Assembly (NCBI GenBank): GCA_028343615.1
Contig: JAOLZA010000006.1
Coordinates: forward strand, 245-64,244
Direction: 5' to 3'
Length of the DNA stretch: 64,000 bases
From: Verrucomicrobiota bacterium
Lineage (GTDB): Bacteria > Verrucomicrobiota > Verrucomicrobiia > Limisphaerales > UBA1100
Both the position numbers and the translations under genes were made by a program. The notes under the pieces were generated by a model that saw nothing but the letters and a program-made list of their open reading frames with translations, was not told where the DNA came from and searched no databases. Positions 35,592 through 44,887 of the stretch are shown here, piece by piece; position 1 is the first letter of the stretch, and each line of letters begins with the position of its first letter.

Positions 35592-36122
35592 TTATTGGGC
35601 CCCCACTTTCAAATTTAATTCCTCAACAATGAACTCCAGCTCCATACGGGAAGCATCCGGAATTACATCCAGCACTCGGGCAGCGACAACCCCTTCAACG
35701 CGGTACGTCCCTACGCAGCATGATTTGAATTTCCCATTTTGCTTGGGGTCTGGCAGCGGGTATAGAAAAAACAAATTGCGCTGCAGGTAGCGACTCGTAA
35801 TCCCTTCAAACTGGCGGGATCCAGCCGTGGTTAGCCAGAGCCTCAATATTTCGAATCCCTGCTTATCCACAACCAGCTCGGCACTTTGAAGTCCATCAGC
35901 CACCCAAAACAACGGTTCCGCGTCTATCCATACCGATCGATTTGAAGCGCGAGGAACCTCGATTTGAATCGTAAGCTGCACCCCTGCCGTTGCCGACTGG
36001 CCAAAAATGGCCATCTCATATTCATTGCCAGTATCACGCCCCGGCAATTTGCAACCGGCAAAACCTAGATTCAGGAGTGTTGCCGCCAAAATTAAATTGC
36101 ACGTCCGCTGCATCGGCTTCAT
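35592..36122 (-). CDS. Hypothetical lipoprotein with SecDF P1-head-like segment
   Basis: Lipobox FAGC; segment LRLWLTTAGSRQFEGITSRYL. Confidence 0.7.
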   Translation of the reverse strand: MKPMQRTCNLILAATLLNLGFAGCKLPGRDTGNEYEMAIFGQSATAGVQLTIQIEVPRASNRSVWIDAEPLFWVADGLQSAELVVDKQGFEILRLWLTTAGSRQFEGITSRYLQRNLFFLYPLPDPKQNGKFKSCCVGTYRVEGVVAARVLDVIPDASRMELEFIVEELNLKVGAQ

Positions 36123-36175
36123 ACTCACGGAGGCAACACAGAAAACCAAATTCAGTAAAGAGGAAGTAATTCACC

Positions 36176-36271
36176 ATGGGTCAACAAACCAACAAAGTGC
36201 AAAAGCGCCGGCGGCGCACTGACTACCTTAAGCGTAAAAAAACTACCACCAAAACCAAGGGCGGCAAGTAA
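36176..36271 (+). CDS. Small basic protein, 31 aa (MGQQTNKVQKRRRRTDYLKRKKTTTKTKGGK)
   Basis: Below ORF-track cutoff; purine-rich AAAGAGGAAG upstream; followed by palindrome plus T-tract. Confidence 0.7.
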   Translation: MGQQTNKVQKRRRRTDYLKRKKTTTKTKGGK

Positions 36272-36291
36272 TCCAGTCCAGCCCTTTCCGC

Positions 36292-36310
36292 AACCCCTAG
36301 GGGTTTTTGT
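36292..36310 (+). terminator. Possible intrinsic terminator after small basic ORF
   Basis: AACCC-CTAG-GGGTT followed by TTTGT. Confidence 0.45.
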
Positions 36311-36328
36311 GTGAATCTAATCCCAGAT

Positions 36329-36337
36329 TTATTCACA
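36329..36337 (+). promoter_or_regulatory. DnaA box
   Basis: TTATTCACA (TTATNCACA consensus); weaker TTTTTCACA at 36372 and CTGTTCACA at 36459. Confidence 0.55.
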
Positions 36338-36462
36338 AACCCAAGCACCTTCACCCGGCCTGCTTGAGATTTTTTTCACAAGCGTCTTGTTTGGCCATAA
36401 AAATGTGGGGTTATTTTCATGTGTGACGTTATATTTCTAATTTAATAATGGGAACAATCTGT

Positions 36463-36503
36463 TCACAATAACTAGTGGCCAAACTTAAAAAGTGGGGTAT
36501 CTT
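36463..36503 (+). promoter_or_regulatory. Putative ncRNA promoter with NrdR-like box overlapping the -35
   Basis: TCACAATAACTAGTGG (36463-36478); TGGCCA (36476), 16 nt, TATCTT (36498-36503). Confidence 0.45.
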
Positions 36504-36509
36504 ATCTTT

Positions 36510-37586
36510 AGTTCTGCGAGTGATCGTTAGAGCTAAGGTTCCTTGAAAGAACGGAGTATATTGCCGGGCAACTGGCACGAAACTCTCAGGATAAATCCCA
36601 GGAAACTGGGCGAAAGGGCAGGCGAGGCTGATTCGACTGCCCCCTTTGAAACGCCACGAATTCGCGTTGAGATTCGGCTTGAACGTCACTTCGGTGATTG
36701 GATGGCCCTAAGGGAACGAGGAAAACCGAGCGCAGAAGAGGCACAGTTCACTTGAGTGGACGGTGGCGGTCGCACGCCATCGAATGCGATAAATCCACTC
36801 AAGAGGTTAGGGGCGAAACATACGGGCGCAAGCCCGGCAAGAAGCCGCCCTGATCTGGCTACGGAAAGCGCTGCACGCATCAGGCTCACTTCGGTGAACC
36901 CGATAATCCGTGACAGTTGCCGTACATAGCCCAGTTTGCGCAACCTTCGGGAGGCGTTAAACTGAGTCAAGTAGGTGCGAGCACGTTTCGAGCGAGCATC
37001 GAACGCAGTTGCCCATAGGGTGAAGATTACCTACTGCAGCATCAGCCCGGCGGGAAACGAAAATTGGCCGGAAACGGCCAGCCAGACGAAATCCTCTGAA
37101 AAGAGGGACAAAGCTGGGGTCCCCGTCGGGATGGCCACGAGCCCAAGACAACGGCCGTGAAAACCATCCGACGCGGTGGCGATACAAAAACTGTAGCGCT
37201 GCCATGTGAACGAAATGGTAATCTGAGGGGTAAGAGGCGAGACCCGTGGCAAGGGCCAACGCACCGTCAAAAACGGTGGCCGACCCATGCTATCTGGCTT
37301 GGAAGTGAATAGTTCACATCCGCGTCCAAGCCTGGTCCGCAGGTCAGCGGCCGCAACCACTGGCTGAAGCGGGCTTATAAACCTCACCCAACAATCCAAG
37401 TGCCGAAAGGCCTTGAACGGCCCTGCTATGAGGCCGACAACTCCGCGAGTCACGGAGAATGGCGTCGGGGAGCAACCGACCTGCATTGTGGGTGCCCAAC
37501 GGTTGCATCGGGAAAGAGCGTGTGGCGAACGCCCACCCCCCAATTTGTCCCTGCTGGACTTCGGTCCGGCAGGGACCTTTTGTTTT
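36510..37586 (+). ncRNA. Large (~1.07 kb) highly structured non-coding RNA candidate (possibly MISL-class or novel)
   Basis: No credible ORF; many GNRA/UUCG-capped stems on + strand, long-range 8-10 bp stems, G-U pairs that work in + orientation, strong terminator; boundaries approximate. Confidence 0.85.
37547..37586 (+). terminator. Rho-independent terminator
   Basis: GTCCCTGCTGGAC-TTCG-GTCCGGCAGGGAC then CTTTTGTTTT. Confidence 0.92.
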
Positions 37587-37664
37587 CACGCAGATCATGA
37601 TTTTCAATTGTGCTTGCCCGAAGCTCTTATTCCGTGCTCAATCAGCCCTCACCACTTTCCAGTT

Positions 37665-38672
37665 ATGGGTAAAATCTACGACAACATCGTGCAAACCGTC
37701 GGCGGTACTCCGCTCGTACGGCTCAATAAAGTCACCGAAGGCATCGACGCTACCGTGCTACTCAAGTGCGAATTCTTCAATCCGCTCTCCAGCGTTAAAG
37801 ATCGCATCGGTAAATCGATGATCGAGACGGCGGAAGCCGACGGTACCTTAACAAAGGATACTATCATTATTGAGCCCACTAGTGGCAACACAGGTATTGC
37901 TCTCGCCTTTGTGGCTGCCGCCAAAGGTTATTCACTCATCCTAACGATGCCCGAGAGTATGTCGCTCGAACGCCGCACGTTACTGGCGATGTTGGGCGCG
38001 GACCTTGTGCTTACGCCCGCCGCAAAGGGGATGAAAGGCGCAATTGCAATGGCGGAGAAACTTGCCGCCGAGACGCCCAATGCTTGGGTTCCTCAACAGT
38101 TTGAAAACCCGGCAAACCCCGCCATTCACCGCAAAACTACCGCGGAGGAAATTTGGGAGGATACCGACGGTGAGGTGGATTTTGTTGTCGCCGGCGTTGG
38201 GACGGGCGGCACACTCACCGGTTGCTGCGAAGTTATTCGCGCGCGAAAAGAATCATTTCGGGCCATAGCCGTGGAGCCCGCAGATTCCCCCGTAATTTCT
38301 CAAACCATTGCGGGAGAAGAACTCACTCCGGGGCCGCACAAGATTCAAGGCACCGGTGCCGGTTTCGTGCCGGACAATCTTCACCTCAAGGCAGAGGACG
38401 GAATCGAACAAATCGCTGAGTGTATTAGGGTCAGCAATGATGACTCATTCGCAATGGCCCGTGAGTTGGCCAAAACCGAAGGTATCTTGTGTGGCATTTC
38501 CGCCGGGGCAAACGTAGTTGCCGCGCTAGAGTTGGCCCGTCGCTCGGAGAATTCCGGTAAGACAATTGTGACCATGGCGCCTTCCACTGGCGAACGCTAT
38601 TTAAGTACTCCATTGGCCGAGGAAGCCCGCATGATTGTCACAGAACTACCCGTGCAGGATCCTGCTGCATAA
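37665..38672 (+). CDS. cysK: Cysteine synthase A
   Basis: [43 protein letters not shown]; start at MGKIYD (ORF-track extension runs into the ncRNA). Confidence 0.96.
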
Positions 38673-38831
38673 TATTTACTGAAAAAAGTGTTGCCAGTCG
38701 CACTTGCTTGACCCTAAATGAGGGCGGTTTACGCCTCCGTCACGGATTCAGTCCGCGAAGGGAATCCCCGTTCGATTGTCTCGATTCAGGCCATCCTGTT
38801 TCGTTTCGCTTGCACACACCAATTTTTTATT

Positions 38832-39962
38832 ATGGGAAACAACAATAAAACCGAGTGGCCCGAAGAAGGTGGTGGCTACTTGGAAATCTCTGACAAAGGC
38901 TTTGGCTTTCTGCGTTCTTCGGGCAACCGATTCCAGTCGAAGCCCACCGACATCTTTGTGACGCCTGATACTATCCGGCGTCACTACCTCCGTGAAGGCT
39001 GTCACATTCAAGGCCGACTCGTGCCGCCACACAAGGGGCACAGCCCGCAGCTCAAGGAGATTTACACCGTGAACGAAATGCCGTTTAAGGAATATACCGA
39101 ATGCTCGCGATTTGAAAACCTCACCACCATCGATCCGCTTGAAAAATTCAATCTCGAGACCGAGTCCGACAGCATTGAAACGCGCATTATTGATCTCGTA
39201 ACCCCCATCGGTAAAGGTACTCGCGGCATGATTGTTTCGCCCCCCCGTACGGGCAAGACGACCATTCTTAAGCAAATTTGCAACGCCGTTACCACGAACC
39301 ATCCTGATGTGAAAACCATCGTGATGCTCATCGACGAGCGCCCCGAGGAAGTTACGGACTTCGAGCGTTCCGTGGACGCCGAAGTGGTCGCCTCCTCCAA
39401 CGACATGGATCTCGAAACGCACGTTCGCCTTTCACGTTTCATGATCGAGCGTTGCCGCCGAATGGTCGAGTGCGGGCAGGATGTGTTTATGCTGATGGAT
39501 TCAATCACCCGCATTGCGCGTGCTTACAATAACGTGAACACCGGGAGTGGTCGAACGATGTCTGGCGGCGTTGACGCGCGGGCACTTGAAATCCCTCGAC
39601 GAATGTTTGCTGCTGCCCGCAATATTGAAAACGGTGGCTCACTCACCATTCTTGCCACTGCATTGGTGGACACCGGCAGTCGCATGGACGAGCTGATCTT
39701 TCAAGAGTTTAAAGGCACCGGTAATATGGAGCTCATCCTCGACAAAAAACTCGCCGAACGTCGCCTTTATCCCGCCATAGACATCCCCAAAAGCGGCACT
39801 CGCAAAGAAGAGAAGCTCTTCCCTGAAGAACACCTTGATGCCATCCACAAGCTCAGGCGGACAATGATTGATCTTGACCCTGTCCAAGCAATGGAAACTC
39901 TTATTGGCGCGTTAAAAAAGCACAACACCAACGCGGAGTTGCTTACCAAGCTAAAAACCTAG
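38832..39962 (+). CDS. rho: Transcription termination factor Rho (short form)
   Basis: GFGFLR, DIFV, PPRTGKT, DERPEEVTD, SGGVD, EFKGTGNME, SGTRKEE; the ATG at 38718 overlaps the putative -10 (TTGCCA 38691, TAAATG 38715). Confidence 0.95.
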   Translation: MGNNNKTEWPEEGGGYLEISDKGFGFLRSSGNRFQSKPTDIFVTPDTIRRHYLREGCHIQGRLVPPHKGHSPQLKEIYTVNEMPFKEYTECSRFENLTTIDPLEKFNLETESDSIETRIIDLVTPIGKGTRGMIVSPPRTGKTTILKQICNAVTTNHPDVKTIVMLIDERPEEVTDFERSVDAEVVASSNDMDLETHVRLSRFMIERCRRMVECGQDVFMLMDSITRIARAYNNVNTGSGRTMSGGVDARALEIPRRMFAAARNIENGGSLTILATALVDTGSRMDELIFQEFKGTGNMELILDKKLAERRLYPAIDIPKSGTRKEEKLFPEEHLDAIHKLRRTMIDLDPVQAMETLIGALKKHNTNAELLTKLKT

Positions 39963-39974
39963 ATCATTCCTTCT

Positions 39975-40988
39975 ATGGCACCCACCAAGGGGCGAATAAA
40001 AAAAACAAAACCCGGTCGCCCGACGGAGTTGAAATCGCGTCCGCCTTATGCGCGGATGCTGCAAATTCATGATATGGTACAGCAGGGCAACTACCCCAAC
40101 GCCACCTCGCTTTCAAAAAAACTGGAGGTCACCACCAAAACGATACATCGCGACATCGGATTTATGCGCGACCGATTCACCTTGCCCATTGAATATGATG
40201 CCCTTCGAAATGGCTATCATTACTCCGCGCCAGTTGATTCGTTTCCCATGCTGCAAATAGACGAAGGCGAACTCTTCGCATTGCTCGTAGCTGAAAAAGT
40301 ACTGCAACAGTATCGCGGCACGGTTTTCGAAAAACAACTAAACACCGCCTTTGGAAAAATTTCTAAATCTTTGCCTGACACAGTTTCCATGCGGCTCAGC
40401 GACTGGGATGATGCCCTTGATATTCGTAGCACCGGCAAGGTAAATGTGGATGAGAAAATATTTGACTTGCTGTTCAAATCCGTTGCCAAGGGCCGCCAGT
40501 TAGAAATTCTTTACACCAAGCCCAATGACGCGCCTGAGAAACGCGTAATTGACCCTTATCAAATCGCCAACATTAACAACGATTGGTATCTATATGCCTA
40601 CGACCACAAGCAAAATGACATACGCTGCTTCGTTCCTGCGCGAATGGAATCAGCAGAAATTACGGGTCAAAAATTTAAGCGGCCTGATTCCTTTTCCCTC
40701 GACCAATATCTCGAAGGTGCCTTTGGGCCTTTCTCCAGTGACGAATCCTACGACATTCGGATCCAATTCACCAAGGCTGCCGCGCCCTTCATTCGCGAAA
40801 AAAAGTGGCACCCTTCTCAAGAGCTCAGGGAATTAAAAAATGGGCGCGTTGAAGTTTCGCTCCAATTGAGCCACCTCATCGACATCCGTCGATGGGTTCT
40901 CGGTTGGGGCGGTCAAGCCAAAGTTTTAGCCCCAGCGGAATTGCTGGAATCCGTGCGGGCCGAAGCCAAAGCCATTCTGGCAAAATAA
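39975..40988 (+). CDS. HTH-WYL-WCX transcriptional regulator (PafB/DriD-like)
   Basis: HTH LEVTTKTIHRDI; R.IDPY..NNDWYLYAYD..IRCF..RM; C-terminal WVLGWG...VLAP. Confidence 0.94.
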   Translation: MAPTKGRIKKTKPGRPTELKSRPPYARMLQIHDMVQQGNYPNATSLSKKLEVTTKTIHRDIGFMRDRFTLPIEYDALRNGYHYSAPVDSFPMLQIDEGELFALLVAEKVLQQYRGTVFEKQLNTAFGKISKSLPDTVSMRLSDWDDALDIRSTGKVNVDEKIFDLLFKSVAKGRQLEILYTKPNDAPEKRVIDPYQIANINNDWYLYAYDHKQNDIRCFVPARMESAEITGQKFKRPDSFSLDQYLEGAFGPFSSDESYDIRIQFTKAAAPFIREKKWHPSQELRELKNGRVEVSLQLSHLIDIRRWVLGWGGQAKVLAPAELLESVRAEAKAILAK

Positions 40989-41051
40989 CCGATTTTACGC
41001 TCGCCAATCACCCCGAATCCGCTAAATTAACCGGCGTCTGCTTTGGGCGGG

Positions 41052-41099
41052 AAACCATTTGTAGGGGTGGGTGTGGATAACTCACACATTATCTTGTGG
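41052..41099. promoter_or_regulatory. Two NrdR-like boxes (32 bp apart) flanking a perfect DnaA box upstream of smc
   Basis: AAACCATTTGTAGGGG (41052), TGTGGATAA (41072-41080), ACACATTATCTTGTGG (41084). Confidence 0.6.
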
Positions 41100-41146
41100 G
41101 TTTTTGGTTGCCAGCGTTCCGCTTGAGAAGGCACAAGGAGGTCCAA

Positions 41147-44100
41147 ATGTATTTGAAAAGCCTAAAGGCGATCGGTTTCAAGAGCTTTGCCGATAAAACA
41201 ACGCTCAATTTTGAACCCGGCATCACGGCCGTTGTTGGTCCCAATGGCTGCGGTAAATCCAACATTTCTGATGCTATTCGCTGGGTGCTTGGCGAACAAT
41301 CGGCCAAGGCCCTGCGCGGCGGGGAAATGGCCGATGTCATTTTCACCGGTACAGACGGGCCGCGCGGACGCAAAGCGATCGGGATGGCCGAAGTGTCACT
41401 CACCATTGGTGATGTGGATGAGGCGAATCTCAGCGCCGCAGGTGTGGATTTGGATTTCAACGAAGTAACTGTTACGCGACGCGTTTTCCGTGATGGCGGC
41501 AGCGAGTATTTTCTCAATGGCACTGGCTGCCGACTGCGCGATGTGCAGCAACTTTTTATGGGCACCGGCGTCGGGCGCAATAGTTACAGCATCATGGCGC
41601 AAGGCCAAATCACGAATATTATCCAAAGTCGCCCAGTGGAGCGCCGGGCGGTAATCGAGGAAGCGGCGGGCATCACTAAATTCAAGCAACAGAAAAAAGA
41701 AGCACTGCGCAAACTTGATTATACGGAGCAAAATTTATTACGACTCGATGACACCATTCGTGAAGTGAAGCGCCAGATTGGCTCGCTTCAACGCCAAGCT
41801 GGTAAGGCTCGGCGTTTCCAGAAAACCATGGACGAGCTGAAGCGTCTTGAGACGCAACTTGCCCGCCACGATTTTGATGTTATTGATGCCGACCTGATTT
41901 CCATCCGCGAAGAGTCCGGCCAGATTCGCGATGAACTGGAGAGCCATTCCAGTGGCATCATCGAGGAGGAATCTGCGCTTAAGCATCTGCGCGAACTGCT
42001 GGCCGACCTCGACCGGCAAGTTAACGCCGCGCAAACCAAGGGGCTCGAACTGAAATCCGAAACCGACCGTCATGAAAACCGGATCCAGTTTAACGAGAAG
42101 CGGATGGAGGAATTGGCCGCCCAACACGCTGAAGCTGAGGATGACATCGCCAGCGCTCAGGAGCGCTGCAAACAAGTGGACGCCGATTTAGAAGGCATCA
42201 ATCAACAGCTCGGCGATTCGGGTCATTCACTGGAGCGCGCCATCCAACACGTGGTCGAAAAACGTAATAGGCTGGAGTCCATCGACACCGCCATTCGTGA
42301 ACGCCAAGCCATACAGGAACGATCCCAGAATGAATCTGGCGAATTGCAAGGCCGCCTTACTCACGCGCGTAATCAATTGACGGCGTTGGAAATGCAAAAG
42401 CAAGGTAACTCCGTGCGTCTGGAAAAGCTTTCCGCTGAGAAAATTCAGTTAGAAGAAGAGCGCTCCAAACTAGAGGGCAGTCTTTCCGTTTTCGAAAAAC
42501 AGGTGGCAGGCGACTCGTTGCACGTCCAATCCCATCGCGGCACCGTCGAAGAGCGCCAGGCTAGGCTGGTGCAGTTGACCGACGAGCTGAATGTTGTCGA
42601 TGATGCCCTGGATGCCCGACTCCAAAGCCAAGCCGAAGCCAAGGCGCGGTGTGATGTCTTGAGGCAGCTGATTGAAAATAAAGAGGGGTTCAGTGCCGGC
42701 GCGCAAGCGGTGCTTTCTCATTTTGATTCGGCGCACGGCTCACTGGCTGATCAAATCCGTGTGCCAGATGAGCACGTACGTGCGGTGGAAGCCGCTTTGG
42801 GCGCGAACTTACAGCTTGTGCTCACTGACCAATCTGCGCATGCGAACGATATGCTTGGCCATCTCGCAAGCGGCGAACAGGGGCGCGCGAGTATTGTGGC
42901 GTTGGAATTGCTAAATGAACGCGGCGGGGCCATTCCGCCAAGTGATTTACCTTCGGAGGGAACGGCTGCCTTGCACGTGGTGGAAACGGATGAGCAGAAC
43001 CAATCACTGCTGCAAACGTTGCTGGGGCGCACGATGATCGTCGACACGCTTGAAACAGCAACGCGCCTGTGGCGAGCAAATCCGGGTAGGTTTGATTTTG
43101 TCACGCGCCAGGGTGAGTCCCTCAGTCAGCAGGGCATTTACACCGGCGGTCGCGGGCATTCCGGTGAACGGGATCACACTTCCGTACTTGCTCGGCGCAA
43201 TCAAGTGGATGAGCTGGAGCAGCAGCTCACCTCACTGACGCACGAAATTGATGAATCCAGCCGTCATAAGGGGCAGTTGTTGGCGGAGCAAACGGAATTG
43301 CAGGCGAGTTTACAAAATGCGCGTGACGAATTGAGTGACCGCGAAGTGGCGGTTGCCACCTCGAAGGGTGAATTTAACGTGCTGCAAAATTCGCGTAAGG
43401 TCTTACGCCAGAAGATCGACACCGTGGTTTTTGAGGTGCGCAATCTTGCTGAGCAAGAGGAAGGCGCGAAGGGCCGGTCGCAGGGATTGGGCGCGCGTAT
43501 TCGTGAGATGGAAGAGGGTGCGCACGATTTCCAGGAAGCGCTTGACGGGCATGAGCAGTTCATACACGAACAACGCGAGCGCCGCGAAAACGCCATCGAG
43601 GATTTAACGGAAGCAAAGGTTGCCCTGTCCAAAGCTGAGGAACGTGAGAATTCATTGCTCGAGCGCAAAACCCCGATGGAGCAGCGACTTGAGGAACTGC
43701 AGCGTACACTCGAGCGCGCGCAACAAACCTTGAGCGAAAGTGCCGAGCGAAAAGTGCAGTTTGAAGCTCAGAATGTGGAGTCGCGCCGCGAGATTGATAG
43801 GCTGCGCATCGAGCGTGAGGCTTCCAGTGAGCAATCGGCGGAACTGACGCAGCAGCGTAATCTACAAGCCGCCGGAGCCGAGCGTCGCGAGATGGAGCTT
43901 TCGGACAAACGCAATTCACTCACGGACCTGCAGGAACGTAAGAGCGATATCGAAGTGGAGCTGGCAGAAAAGCGAATGAAACAGGAGCAGCTCGTGGAAC
44001 GTATCCGCGAGAAGTACAGCGTGAACCTCCACGAAGTGCGCGGTGATTGCGTGACAATTAATATCACCGACAACGGCCAAACCACCACCGAAACCGTCAC

Positions 44101-44887
44101 GGCGGAAGAAATGACTGGTGATGCGCAGTCGATAAATTGGGCCGCCGTGGGTGAGCAAGTCTCTGCCTTGCAGGAAAAAATTGACGGGATGGGCCCAGTT
44201 AACCTGGTGGCAATTGATGAGTATGAAGAGATTGAAGAGCGCCACACATTCCTCAGTGCGCAACATGATGATTTAGTGAATGCTAAGGCCGAGCTCCAGG
44301 AAGTGATCGCGCGCATCGATAAACAGTCGCGCGAAATGTTCATGGAAACCTTTGAGAAAGTGCGCGAGAATTTTCAGAAAATGTTCCCTGATCTCTTCGG
44401 TGGCGGCAAAGCAAATCTTGTACTCACGGAGGAAGCGGATGTGCTTGAATCTGGTGTGGAGATCGTAGCCTCTCCTCCCGGCAAACAGTTGCGTAGCATC
44501 AGCTTGCTCTCCGGTGGCGAACAAACAATGACCGCCGTGGCACTGCTGTTTTCGTTATATCAAGTGAAGCCCAGTCCGTTTTGTGTGTTGGACGAATTGG
44601 ACGCCCCGCTTGATGACGCCAACATTGAGCGTTATGTGAAAAAGCTCAAAGAATTCCTCACGTTTTCTCAATTCATCGTCATCACCCACAGTAAGCGCAC
44701 TATTTCGGCGGCGGATGTACTATACGGCGTAACAATGCAGGAACGCGGTGTAAGTAAGATTGTGAGCGTGAAATTCCACTCGTCACACGACAGCTCCCCA
44801 TCTTCGCAGAACCGAAATGATGCCGGTGATTCCCTCAAGGCCAATCCCCGCGCGGATGAAGACGAGGAAGTCTTTCTCGCCAAATAG
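41147..44887 (+). CDS. smc: Chromosome segregation protein SMC
   Basis: GFKSFA, GPNGCGKSN, coiled coils and hinge, LSGGE, LDELDAPLD; start at MYLKSL. Confidence 0.97.
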   Translation: MYLKSLKAIGFKSFADKTTLNFEPGITAVVGPNGCGKSNISDAIRWVLGEQSAKALRGGEMADVIFTGTDGPRGRKAIGMAEVSLTIGDVDEANLSAAGVDLDFNEVTVTRRVFRDGGSEYFLNGTGCRLRDVQQLFMGTGVGRNSYSIMAQGQITNIIQSRPVERRAVIEEAAGITKFKQQKKEALRKLDYTEQNLLRLDDTIREVKRQIGSLQRQAGKARRFQKTMDELKRLETQLARHDFDVIDADLISIREESGQIRDELESHSSGIIEEESALKHLRELLADLDRQVNAAQTKGLELKSETDRHENRIQFNEKRMEELAAQHAEAEDDIASAQERCKQVDADLEGINQQLGDSGHSLERAIQHVVEKRNRLESIDTAIRERQAIQERSQNESGELQGRLTHARNQLTALEMQKQGNSVRLEKLSAEKIQLEEERSKLEGSLSVFEKQVAGDSLHVQSHRGTVEERQARLVQLTDELNVVDDALDARLQSQAEAKARCDVLRQLIENKEGFSAGAQAVLSHFDSAHGSLADQIRVPDEHVRAVEAALGANLQLVLTDQSAHANDMLGHLASGEQGRASIVALELLNERGGAIPPSDLPSEGTAALHVVETDEQNQSLLQTLLGRTMIVDTLETATRLWRANPGRFDFVTRQGESLSQQGIYTGGRGHSGERDHTSVLARRNQVDELEQQLTSLTHEIDESSRHKGQLLAEQTELQASLQNARDELSDREVAVATSKGEFNVLQNSRKVLRQKIDTVVFEVRNLAEQEEGAKGRSQGLGARIREMEEGAHDFQEALDGHEQFIHEQRERRENAIEDLTEAKVALSKAEERENSLLERKTPMEQRLEELQRTLERAQQTLSESAERKVQFEAQNVESRREIDRLRIEREASSEQSAELTQQRNLQAAGAERREMELSDKRNSLTDLQERKSDIEVELAEKRMKQEQLVERIREKYSVNLHEVRGDCVTINITDNGQTTTETVTAEEMTGDAQSINWAAVGEQVSALQEKIDGMGPVNLVAIDEYEEIEERHTFLSAQHDDLVNAKAELQEVIARIDKQSREMFMETFEKVRENFQKMFPDLFGGGKANLVLTEEADVLESGVEIVASPPGKQLRSISLLSGGEQTMTAVALLFSLYQVKPSPFCVLDELDAPLDDANIERYVKKLKEFLTFSQFIVITHSKRTISAADVLYGVTMQERGVSKIVSVKFHSSHDSSPSSQNRNDAGDSLKANPRADEDEEVFLAK

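What the first reader, a model, noticed from the sequence alone, without database searches (positions are those of the whole stretch)
36510..37586. Giant (~1.07 kb) structured non-coding RNA with its own promoter and terminator
Seen: over 1 kb without a credible protein in a gene-dense chromosome, packed with + strand hairpins. GNRA loops: TGCCGG-GCAA-CTGGCA (36562), CCCAG-GAAA-CTGGG (36597), CGGGC-GCAA-GCCCG (36823), TGGCCG-GAAA-CGGCCA (37065), TCCTCT-GAAA-AGAGGG (37092), GCC-GAAA-GGC (37402). UUCG loops at ~36690, ~36890 and ~36946. Enclosing stems: CTTGAGTGGA/TCCACTCAAG (36751/36794), GTAGGT/ACCTAC (36971/37029), GGCTTGGA/TCCAAGCC (37296/37325), GTGGGTG/CGCCCAC (37488/37530), and possibly CGCCAC (36652) with GTGGCG (37522), closing most of the molecule. 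It ends in a 13-bp terminator. I see no hallmark of RNase P, tmRNA, rRNA or group II intron domain V. Established: large bacterial RNAs of unknown function exist (OLE, GOLLD, ROOL, and MISL, which was described from Verrucomicrobia). Inference: a MISL-like or new giant RNA, possibly a ribozyme or scaffold.
Basis: partly seen in the sequence, partly recalled or inferred. Interest (0 to 1): 0.93.

Follow-up and report, generated by a model that had tools for sequence, protein, structure and literature searches.

The report
MISL RNA gene with DnaA-box promoter
This 1.07-kb non-coding stretch is a full-length copy of MISL, an already catalogued large structured RNA of Verrucomicrobia whose function is unknown; it is abundant in marine RNA libraries and sits behind a conserved cluster of DnaA-box-like sites.

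Summary
Window 36510-37586 (+) has no credible protein gene, folds far better than shuffles (z -6.5) and ends in a 13-bp terminator. It is not a new class. Rfam's MISL model (RF03079) matches 36589-37533 end to end at 502.9 bits against a cut-off of 274.6, E 1.4e-151.

MISL is single-copy here. It was found in 30 of 41 related genomes and in 8 of 150 other genomes sampled from the phylum. An alignment of 33 copies gives 150 consensus pairs, 102 of them with compensatory changes. RNA-library contigs from 3 studies cover only 36562-37572.

Three things go beyond the Rfam entry.
- The conserved RNA starts about 50-80 nt upstream of the model, with a phylum-wide GUUC-N7-GAAC hairpin.
- This lineage carries about 190 nt of insertions.
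- TT[AG]T[TC]CAC boxes, which match the DnaA-box consensus as I recall it, lie upstream of MISL in 30 of 34 loci, about 59 times the density of the flanks.

The same boxes lie upstream of dnaA in 9 of 9 genomes. None were found upstream of 12 RNase P, 6S and tmRNA genes. GC skew shows the site is not a replication origin.

Function remains unknown. DnaA control is an inference.

The parts
36329..36337 (+). Box A: TTATTCACA, a DnaA-box-like 9-mer about 180 nt upstream of the inferred start
   Evidence: Exact match at 36329. A box at this aligned position is present in 30 of 34 MISL loci and in the alignment.
36372..36380 (+). Box B: TTTTTCACA, one mismatch to box A
   Evidence: It lies where other lineages carry an inverted GTGAAYAA box. 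It fails the strict pattern used for the counts.
36459..36467 (+). Box C: CTGTTCACA, a degenerate box about 50 nt upstream of the inferred start
   Evidence: In one search it aligns with TGTGCATAAG / GTGAATAA-type boxes of other families. Two mismatches, so this is a weak call.
36498..36503 (+). -10-like hexamer TATCTT of the MISL promoter (inferred)
   Evidence: A conserved TGnTAnnnT column block in the 25 upstream regions; position. The consensus scan did not detect it.
36510..36534 (+). Genus-specific 5'-terminal hairpin with a GUGA loop
   Evidence: Fold of 36510-36588: z -2.54, 4 of 200 shuffles as good. The hairpin is present in the 7 same-genus copies, with pair changes such as GCGA/UCGU to ACGA/UCGA. 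Other lineages lack it or carry a different GNRA hairpin there.
36538..36552 (+). GUUCCUUGAAAGAAC hairpin, conserved across the phylum and lying outside the Rfam model
   Evidence: Near-invariant in all 33 aligned copies, including another class. It does not vary, so covariation says nothing for or against the pairing.
36553..36586 (+). Covarying hairpin (inner stem 36562-36566/36573-36577, GCAA loop), outside the Rfam model
   Evidence: All 5 pairs show compensatory changes across 33 copies. Fold.
36589..37533 (+). MISL core as matched by Rfam RF03079
   Evidence: 502.9 bits, E 1.4e-151, model positions 1-751 of 751. Covariation.
36661..36717 (+). Expansion E1 (57 nt) relative to the 750-nt form
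   Evidence: Absent in 11 canonical copies, 56-60 nt in genera g1 and g5, 15-24 nt in the rest of the family. Its own fold is no better than shuffles (z +1.33) and its consensus fold is weak.
36815..36835 (+). Expansion E2 (21 nt), the CGGGC-GCAA-GCCCG hairpin
   Evidence: Fold z -2.34, 3 of 200 shuffles as good.
36870..36973 (+). Expansion E3 (about 104 nt) with two UUCG-capped hairpins
   Evidence: 97-106 nt in g1 and g5, 42-120 nt in g2 and g4, 0 nt elsewhere. Fold z -2.16, 4 of 200 shuffles as good. Only 5 of 17 consensus pairs show compensatory change.
37547..37586 (+). Intrinsic terminator: 13-14 bp stem, UUCG loop, U tract
   Evidence: 14 pairs, 11 with compensatory changes, across 33 copies. 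An RNA-library contig ends at 37572 and runs straight into adapter sequence.

Best explanation
Window about 36510-37586 (+) is the single-copy gene for MISL RNA (Rfam RF03079) of a marine Verrucomicrobiota genome.

What the calls show, with the inferred ends marked: it is a stand-alone transcription unit. It has an extended -10-type promoter (TATCTT 36498-36503, inferred). It has a 5' leader of three hairpins that the Rfam model does not cover. The 751-position MISL core carries about 190 nt of lineage-specific insertions. A covarying intrinsic terminator closes the unit. The RNA is non-coding and highly structured, and RNA-library contigs cover it while the neighbouring genes have no cover.

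Inferred: it acts in trans as a stable structured RNA, most likely a protein-binding scaffold or a catalytic or assembly RNA. It is not a leader of cysK.

Inferred, about 55% likely: its transcription is controlled by DnaA. This would work through a phylum-wide cluster of 1-4 boxes of the type (A)GTTRTTCAC(A/C), 50-200 nt upstream, the same boxes that precede dnaA. That would tie MISL level to the replication-initiation state.

The biochemical role is not determined.
For: Identity:
- One search is a full-length hit at 1.8 times the gathering score, and the only family of 4227 over its cut-off in the window.
- One search finds no other family at E<=10 apart from a 13-bit hit.
- the nearest CysK loci are all Verrucomicrobiota MAGs.

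Real structured RNA:
- z -6.48.
- 150 consensus pairs, 102 with compensatory changes, in 33 copies from at least 12 families.

Stand-alone unit:
- A terminator follows every one of the 33 aligned copies.
- The downstream gene is cysK in 23 of 30 loci, but 6 loci have unrelated neighbours.
- No neighbour is shared outside one synteny block.

RNA libraries:
- 9 RNA runs hold at least half of the sampled words.
- In 4 runs from 3 studies the contigs cover only 36562-37572, at word depth 25-232, with no cover on 36100-36561 or 37573-38000.

Boxes:
- 57 hits in 10,200 nt upstream of MISL against 11 in 116,348 nt of the same loci; 30 of 34 loci have at least one.
- 20 hits in 4,500 nt upstream of dnaA against 2 in 21,180 nt; 9 of 9 genomes.
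- The bases flanking the boxes look alike in the two sets.
- 0 hits in 4,800 nt upstream of 12 RNase P, 6S and tmRNA genes.
- In 400 kb of a complete genome, the only two clusters are the ones upstream of dnaA and MISL.
- Closely paired boxes are very rare genome-wide. The convergent pair occurs once in each of G100 and G148, upstream of MISL in both. The divergent pair occurs at 2-3 sites in each of G037 and G028, one of them upstream of MISL.
- The boxes persist where the upstream gene is co-directional, so they belong to MISL and not to a divergent neighbour.
Against: - The window itself has only one box that meets the strict pattern; the other two are degenerate.
- DnaA binding is untested. 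That TTATNCACA is the DnaA box is recalled knowledge, not a call. I did not find the origin of any of these genomes, so the boxes could not be verified at an oriC.
- The related genomes are kin, so the counts overstate independent support.
- Contigs cannot show strand, ends or level. None covers 36510-36561, so the mature 5' end may lie near 36560-36589, or the assembly may simply break at strain variants, as it does at 37440.
- Expansions E1 and E3 are not supported by covariation, and E1 folds no better than shuffles.
- MISL was not found in 11 of 41 relatives. Five of those are at least 90% complete. It was found in only 8 of 150 other genomes sampled from the phylum. It is therefore not universally required.
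- Nothing here bears on what the RNA does.
Confidence: 0.9

Rival explanations
1. The boxes are real, but a transcription factor other than DnaA binds them and co-regulates dnaA and MISL.
For: No binding data exist. The lineage's commonest form, TTATTCAC, differs at position 5 from the E. coli optimum as I recall it. I did not find the boxes clustered at a GC-skew origin.
Against: The motif fits the near-universal DnaA-box consensus (recalled). Perfect TTATCCAC copies occur at the same aligned position in L006 and L030. dnaA promoters carry tandem boxes 11 bp apart, as expected for DnaA autoregulation.
Confidence: 0.25
2. The box cluster is a DNA element in its own right, such as an origin or a datA/DARS-like DnaA-titrating site, and MISL merely lies beside it.
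For: Boxes occur in clusters and in both orientations. An AT-rich stretch lies at 36380-36500.
Against: GC skew does not change sign at the locus in the window. In the complete genome G100 the skew minimum lies near coordinate 0 and the terminus near 2.0 Mb, while MISL is at 2.448 Mb. The boxes keep fixed distances to the RNA start across families while neighbouring genes change.
Confidence: 0.08
3. MISL is a giant cis-acting leader or attenuator of the cysK-rho operon.
For: It has the same orientation as cysK and lies 79 nt upstream of it. The MISL-cysK order is kept in 23 of 30 loci and in 3 of 20 more distant named loci.
Against: 6 loci have unrelated downstream genes, and the f21, f26 and f42 loci share no neighbour. 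A strong conserved terminator follows the RNA. RNA-library contigs stop at the terminator and none covers cysK.
Confidence: 0.03
4. The region encodes a protein on the minus strand (open frame 37031-37543), or is a mobile element or intron.
For: A 183-codon antisense frame stays open in 10 of the 13 copies from genera g1 and g5.
Against: Differences between copies show no third-position excess. There is no Pfam match. The frame is broken to 97 codons or fewer in L002 and L004. The region is single-copy. No intron or other family matches at E<=10.
Confidence: 0.01

Closest known systems
MISL RNA (Rfam RF03079)
   Same: Full-length match well over the curated cut-off. The host phylum, Verrucomicrobiota, is the same (that Rfam places MISL in this phylum is recalled). 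It is a single stand-alone gene with its own terminator.
   Different: The matched stretch is 945 nt against 751 model positions, because of three insertions totalling about 182 nt. The conserved RNA also extends 50-80 nt upstream of the model's first position. Such expanded copies (845-995 nt) are the rule in this family-level lineage.
Large ornate bacterial RNAs of unknown function (GOLLD, ROOL, OLE, raiA)
   Same: It is a very large, heavily structured, non-coding bacterial RNA with many conserved unpaired nucleotides and no known function.
   Different: There is no sequence or structure match to any of them at E<=10. MISL is chromosomal, single-copy and vertically inherited with a fixed promoter architecture. 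GOLLD and ROOL, by contrast, are often near tRNAs and in prophages (PMC5737381, passages seen). RNA-only multimeric cages were reported for GOLLD, ROOL and OLE (10.1101/2024.12.08.627333, abstract start only). Nothing comparable was found in print for MISL.
DnaA-regulated promoters (dnaA autoregulation, nrdAB in E. coli; recalled knowledge)
   Same: There are clusters of 9-mers fitting TTATNCACA upstream of the promoter. The same boxes precede dnaA in 9 of 9 relatives. A cluster of degenerate boxes precedes the ribonucleotide reductase gene in this genome.
   Different: The regulated product would be a 1-kb structured RNA, not a protein. Binding and the direction of any effect are untested.
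Housekeeping RNAs: RNase P RNA, 6S RNA, tmRNA
   Same: Abundant, stable, single-copy, trans-acting RNAs with their own promoter and terminator.
   Different: It is not a member of any of them. The same genomes keep their own copies, and those genes have no boxes upstream (0 hits in 4,800 nt).

Membership tests
MISL RNA (RF03079) | Covariance-model score at or above Rfam's gathering score (274.6 bits) over the whole model | tested here: met
   502.9 bits, E 1.4e-151, model positions 1-751 of 751, not truncated. The whole-genome search gave the same result.
MISL RNA (RF03079) | Consensus helices kept and supported by compensatory changes among homologues | tested here: met
   The alignment shows few non-canonical marks. 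33 copies give 150 pairs, 102 with compensatory change. These come from MAFFT plus RNAalifold, not from Rfam's seed alignment.
   The closest CysK-bearing contigs are titled Verrucomicrobiota, Verrucomicrobiales, Pedosphaera or Limisphaerales MAGs. MISL was found in 30 of 41 relatives and in 8 of 150 other genomes of the same phylum. It was found in 0 of 14 control genomes of other phyla.
MISL RNA (RF03079) | Original published description (consensus drawing, stated properties) | not testable with these tools
   The term MISL does not occur in the main text of PMC5737381 (0 occurrences in the listing).
RNase P RNA / tmRNA / 6S / group I and II introns / GOLLD / ROOL / OLE | A match to the family's covariance model | tested here: not met
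   No match at E<=10 on 36450-37620, either strand, apart from MISL and a 13.1-bit SorX hit.
DnaA-controlled promoter | Boxes fitting the DnaA-box consensus, enriched at the promoter and shared with the dnaA promoter of the same genomes | tested here: met
   5.6 per kb against 0.095 per kb. dnaA upstream regions have 4.4 per kb against 0.094 per kb, in 9 of 9 genomes. Control RNA genes have 0 hits in 4,800 nt. The consensus itself is recalled.
DnaA-controlled promoter | DnaA binds the boxes and changes transcription | not testable with these tools
   This needs a footprint, EMSA or ChIP, plus reporter or depletion experiments.
Replication origin (oriC) | GC-skew sign change at the locus | tested here: not met
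   In the window the skew is positive on both sides. In G100 it is negative throughout 2.17-3.10 Mb around MISL, and the minimum lies near coordinate 0.

The most novel reading that the evidence does not exclude
MISL belongs to the DnaA regulon of Verrucomicrobiota. It would be a 0.75-1.1-kb structured RNA whose synthesis follows DnaA occupancy of its promoter, and which acts in replication-initiation or cell-cycle control, for instance by feeding back on DnaA or on chromosome organisation. That would make it the first large ornate bacterial RNA with a defined regulatory input and a place in the replication cycle.
Probability: 0.15. Interest if true: 0.8.

Novelty: new member of a known kind. 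Interest (0 to 1): 0.45.

Why it matters
MISL is one of the few bacterial RNAs of ribozyme-like size and complexity with no known function, so any handle on it is useful. This copy adds four handles.
- It shows that the conserved RNA is longer than the Rfam model, which has consequences for constructs used in structure work.
- It defines an expanded variant about 1.07 kb long.
- RNA-library contigs show the RNA, but not its neighbouring genes, in marine samples from three studies.
- It gives a concrete, testable regulatory lead: conserved DnaA-box-like sites shared with the dnaA promoter.

If DnaA control is confirmed, experiments on MISL could be aimed at replication and the cell cycle rather than run blind.

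Tried and rejected
- Origin hypothesis for the box cluster: rejected by GC skew in the window and in the complete genome G100. I then tried to find G100's oriC near the skew minimum to verify the boxes there. I found only coding sequence and one near-box, and stopped.
- Box clusters genome-wide in the window's own genome: uninformative. The assembly is 59% complete, has no dnaA, and has few clusters.
- Single-pattern scan of G100: the listing was cut at 100 of 336 matches, so it could not be used to find clusters.
- cysK-leader hypothesis: rejected.
- Antisense protein: rejected.
- Consensus folds of the expansions: weak, because genera g1 and g5 are too divergent for MAFFT. Nothing can be concluded about their structure beyond single-sequence folds.
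This is inconclusive, and the alignment register is poor there.
- A conserved protein partner gene next to MISL: none found.
- Literature: searches for 'MISL RNA', MISL/GOLLD/ROOL, MISL plus Verrucomicrobia, RF03079 and 'DnaA box' plus Verrucomicrobia found no paper on MISL function or regulation. The only relevant paper is Ribonanza, which used MISL windows for chemical mapping (passages). The hits in PMC13324647 ('misleadingly') and PMC9329510 ('ORF03079') are irrelevant. The supplements of PMC5737381, where MISL was probably first described (recalled), are closed.
- Parts of the stretch without RNA-contig cover (36100-36561 and 37573-38000) are reported as seen. No DNA run was laid for comparison.
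Full report
**1. What is there.**
The stretch between hyp185 (start 36149, - strand) and cysK (ATG 37665, + strand) is 1515 nt long and has no credible gene. The 998 nt at 36589-37586 fold to -411.9 kcal/mol, against -361.9 +/- 7.7 for dinucleotide shuffles. That is z -6.48, and 0 of 20 shuffles fold as well. A 13-bp, G+C-rich hairpin with a UUCG loop and a T run lies at 37547-37586.

**2. Identity.**
A scan of the whole window against the 4227 Rfam families gives one match over a curated cut-off. It is MISL (RF03079) at 36589-37533 (+), with 502.9 bits against a gathering score of 274.6 and E 1.4e-151. It covers model positions 1-751 of 751 and is not truncated. A permissive scan of 36450-37620 at E<=10 adds only a 13-bit SorX hit on the terminator. 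Nothing from RNase P, tmRNA, introns, GOLLD, ROOL or OLE appears. The class is therefore known.

The window's genome is a 2.53-Mb assembly that is 59% complete, and it holds one copy. The nearest CysK-bearing contigs in the named genome collection are Verrucomicrobiota MAGs titled Verrucomicrobiales, Pedosphaera, Limisphaerales or subdivision 3.

**3. Distribution.**
- MISL was found in 30 of 41 related genomes, counting the window's own. Among high-quality genomes the count is 21 of 26, and by genus 14 of 21. There is nearly always one copy.
- In an even sample of the phylum it was found in 8 of 150 other genomes. These were 6 of 8 in family f21, 1 of 1 in f26 and 1 of 3 in f42, which belongs to another class. 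It was not found in f20 (0 of 15), f22 (0 of 15) or f29 (0 of 24). Stricter filters applied in that search, so some weak matches may have been lost.
- It was not found in the 14 control genomes.
- MISL-bearing genomes keep ordinary RNase P RNA (4 of 4 complete genomes), 6S (4 of 4 at E<=0.001, 3 over the cut-off) and tmRNA (4 of 5 over the cut-off). MISL is therefore an additional RNA and not a replacement for one of these.

**4. It is a real structured RNA.**
Thirty-three copies were aligned with MAFFT and folded with RNAalifold. This gives 150 consensus pairs, 102 of them with at least one compensatory double change. My own run lists the helices in window coordinates.
- The stem 36751/36794 agrees with the Rfam consensus line.
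- The long-range pairs GTGGGTG/CGCCCAC and CGCCAC/GTGGCG show no compensatory change, with 68% and 47% of cells paired. The first competes with a local hairpin, 37479-37484/37488-37493, that switches A-U to G-C.
- No ORF in the region has a Pfam match.
- The antisense frame 37031-37543 stays open in 10 of the 13 copies from genera g1 and g5. It is broken elsewhere, and it accumulates differences evenly over the three codon positions. It is a shadow of a conserved RNA.

**5. Anatomy beyond the Rfam model.**
Conservation continues upstream of the model's first base.
- A near-invariant GUUCYUUGAWAGAAC hairpin (window 36538-36552) is present in all aligned copies, including the other class.
- It is followed by a hairpin whose 5 inner pairs all covary (36562-36577).
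- The window's genus has one more hairpin, with a GUGA loop, at 36510-36534. Genera g2 and g4 have a different GNRA hairpin at that place.
- Just upstream lies a conserved TGnTAnnnT element (TATCTT at 36498-36503). The start is an inference.
- The generic promoter scan found only a chance-level site elsewhere, and no RNA contig covers 36510-36561.

Relative to the roughly 752-nt form of other families, this copy has three insertions: E1 36661-36717 (57 nt), E2 36815-36835 (21 nt) and E3 about 36870-36973 (104 nt). Copies in this family-level lineage measure 845-995 nt. E2 and E3 fold somewhat better than shuffles (z -2.3 and -2.2), but E1 does not (z +1.3). Consensus folds of the expansions are weak. 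Their structure is therefore not established.

**6. Stand-alone transcript, seen in RNA libraries.**
Every one of the 33 aligned copies ends in a covarying terminator directly after ...CGCCCACCCCC. The block M23 peptidase (-) / hyp185 (-) / MISL (+) / cysK (+) / rho (+) is kept in this family and three others; cysK lies downstream in 23 of 30 loci. Six loci have unrelated neighbours, including TPR proteins, a RecD-like helicase, a GT2 glycosyltransferase and an ABC ATPase. The loci of f21, f26 and f42 share no neighbour at all. Only 3 of 20 more distant named cysK loci have MISL upstream.

Twenty public runs from 11 studies hold at least half of the sampled words of 36400-37700, and 9 of them are RNA libraries of marine samples. 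I laid four RNA runs from three studies. Their contigs cover 36562-37572 at word depth 25-232 and nothing in 36100-36561 or 37573-38000. One contig ends at 37572, inside the terminator stem, and continues into Illumina adapter. Contigs cannot give strand, true ends or level, and I laid no DNA run for comparison. Loose ends at 37040 and 37105 read like the MISL of genus g5, so a related MISL is in the same libraries.

**7. The new lead: DnaA-box-like sites.**
The upstream alignment shows repeated TTATTCACA / TGTGAATAA words in both orientations, and in two genomes perfect TTATCCAC. I recall the DnaA-box consensus as TTATCCACA, relaxed to TTWTNCACA. That consensus comes from no call.
- With the pattern TT[AG]T[TC]CAC on both strands, the 300 nt upstream of the RNA hold 57 hits in 34 loci, or 5.6 per kb, and 30 of 34 loci have at least one. 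The rest of the same loci hold 11 hits in 116,348 nt, or 0.095 per kb.
- Positions are conserved: about -190 forward, -155 reverse and -70 reverse in most families, and -120 reverse and -90 forward in f21.
- The same pattern gives 20 hits in the 500 nt upstream of dnaA in 9 of 9 genomes, or 4.4 per kb, against 2 hits in 21,180 nt of the rest. One site is fixed at -26 to -48, and there are tandem pairs 11 bp apart.
- The flanking bases agree between the two sets.
- Twelve control regions upstream of RNase P, 6S and tmRNA genes hold none (0 hits in 4,800 nt).
- In 400 kb of the complete genome G100, the only two clusters are the ones upstream of dnaA and MISL.
- Closely paired boxes are very rare genome-wide, and the reversed-pattern controls gave none in 13 of 15 genome-by-pattern tests (2 in G085 for the direct pair). 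The convergent pair occurs once in each of G100 and G148, upstream of MISL in both. The divergent pair occurs at 2-3 sites in each of G037 and G028, one of them upstream of MISL. One of the four direct pairs in G028 lies upstream of dnaA.
- The boxes remain where the upstream gene is co-directional, so they go with MISL.
- The window itself has one strict box (36329-36337) and two degenerate ones (36372, 36459).
- In this genome a cluster of degenerate boxes also precedes the class I ribonucleotide reductase gene.

**8. Not an origin.**
GC skew is positive on both sides of the locus in the window. In G100 it is negative throughout 2.17-2.57 Mb and 2.90-3.10 Mb. Genome-wide sampling puts the skew minimum near coordinate 0 and the terminus near 2.0 Mb. 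MISL (2.448 Mb) and dnaA (2.293 Mb) are far from the origin. I did not locate oriC itself, so the boxes are not verified at an origin.

**9. Best reading and its limits.**
- That this is a MISL gene transcribed as an independent, abundant, structured RNA, I hold at about 0.9 or higher.
- That the boxes are DnaA boxes and make MISL part of the DnaA regulon, I hold at about 0.55. The main rival is another factor that binds the same word.
- What the RNA does is unknown. From its size, its many invariant unpaired stretches, its abundance and its lack of a fixed neighbour, I favour a trans-acting scaffold or catalytic/assembly RNA.
- No paper on MISL function or regulation was found. Its original description is probably in a supplement that I could not open.

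**10. Verdict.**
The class is already known. This copy is a new, expanded member. The promoter architecture is a new, testable lead. Interest is moderate.

Noticed in passing
G100:C1 (loci L046, L048-L067, L148-L186): In this complete 4.32-Mb genome, dnaA (2.293 Mb) lies about 0.3 Mb from the GC-skew terminus (about 2.0 Mb) and about 2 Mb from the skew minimum near coordinate 0. dnaA is therefore not origin-linked here. oriC was not located.
   Followed up: partly
G000:C53:19700-20260 (locus L187:700-1260): A cluster of degenerate TTATTCACA-like boxes lies directly upstream of a class I ribonucleotide reductase large-subunit gene (ATP-cone plus RNR domains, Pfam). This fits a DnaA regulon, but only one box meets the strict pattern.
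   Followed up: partly
window 37031-37543 (-): An antisense open frame (170 aa from TTG, 183 codons stop to stop) stays open in 10 of the 13 MISL copies from genera g1 and g5. It shows no codon-position bias and has no Pfam match. It is a conserved-RNA shadow that gene callers could annotate as a hypothetical protein.
   Followed up: yes
window 37040-37105, RNA runs X8 and X12: Short contigs match only this stretch, and their loose ends read like the MISL of a sister genus (the L012 row of alignment A1). A second, related MISL is present in the same marine RNA libraries.
   Followed up: no
window 36292-36305: A perfect palindrome AACCCCTAGGGGTT followed by a T run lies between the divergent hyp185 gene and the MISL box region. 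Its role is unknown: it could be a terminator of the doubtful 71-aa ORF 36007-36222, or a binding site.
   Followed up: no
window 36007-36222 (+) and 35592-36149 (-): A 71-aa ORF with a Lys/Arg-rich tail overlaps the 5' part of hyp185 on the other strand. In same-genus loci hyp185 is always the better conserved of the two (for example 94% against 85%), so the 71-aa frame is probably a shadow.
   Followed up: partly
window 37665-44887: The genes downstream of MISL are cysK, rho, a WYL/HTH regulator and SMC. The cysK-rho pair follows MISL in most loci of this family.
   Followed up: partly
G020 (L029 and C42:23671-24359): In one relative, MISL appears split over two contigs: model positions 8-381 plus 465-498 on one, and 387-750 on the other. 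This is probably an assembly break rather than a split gene.
   Followed up: no
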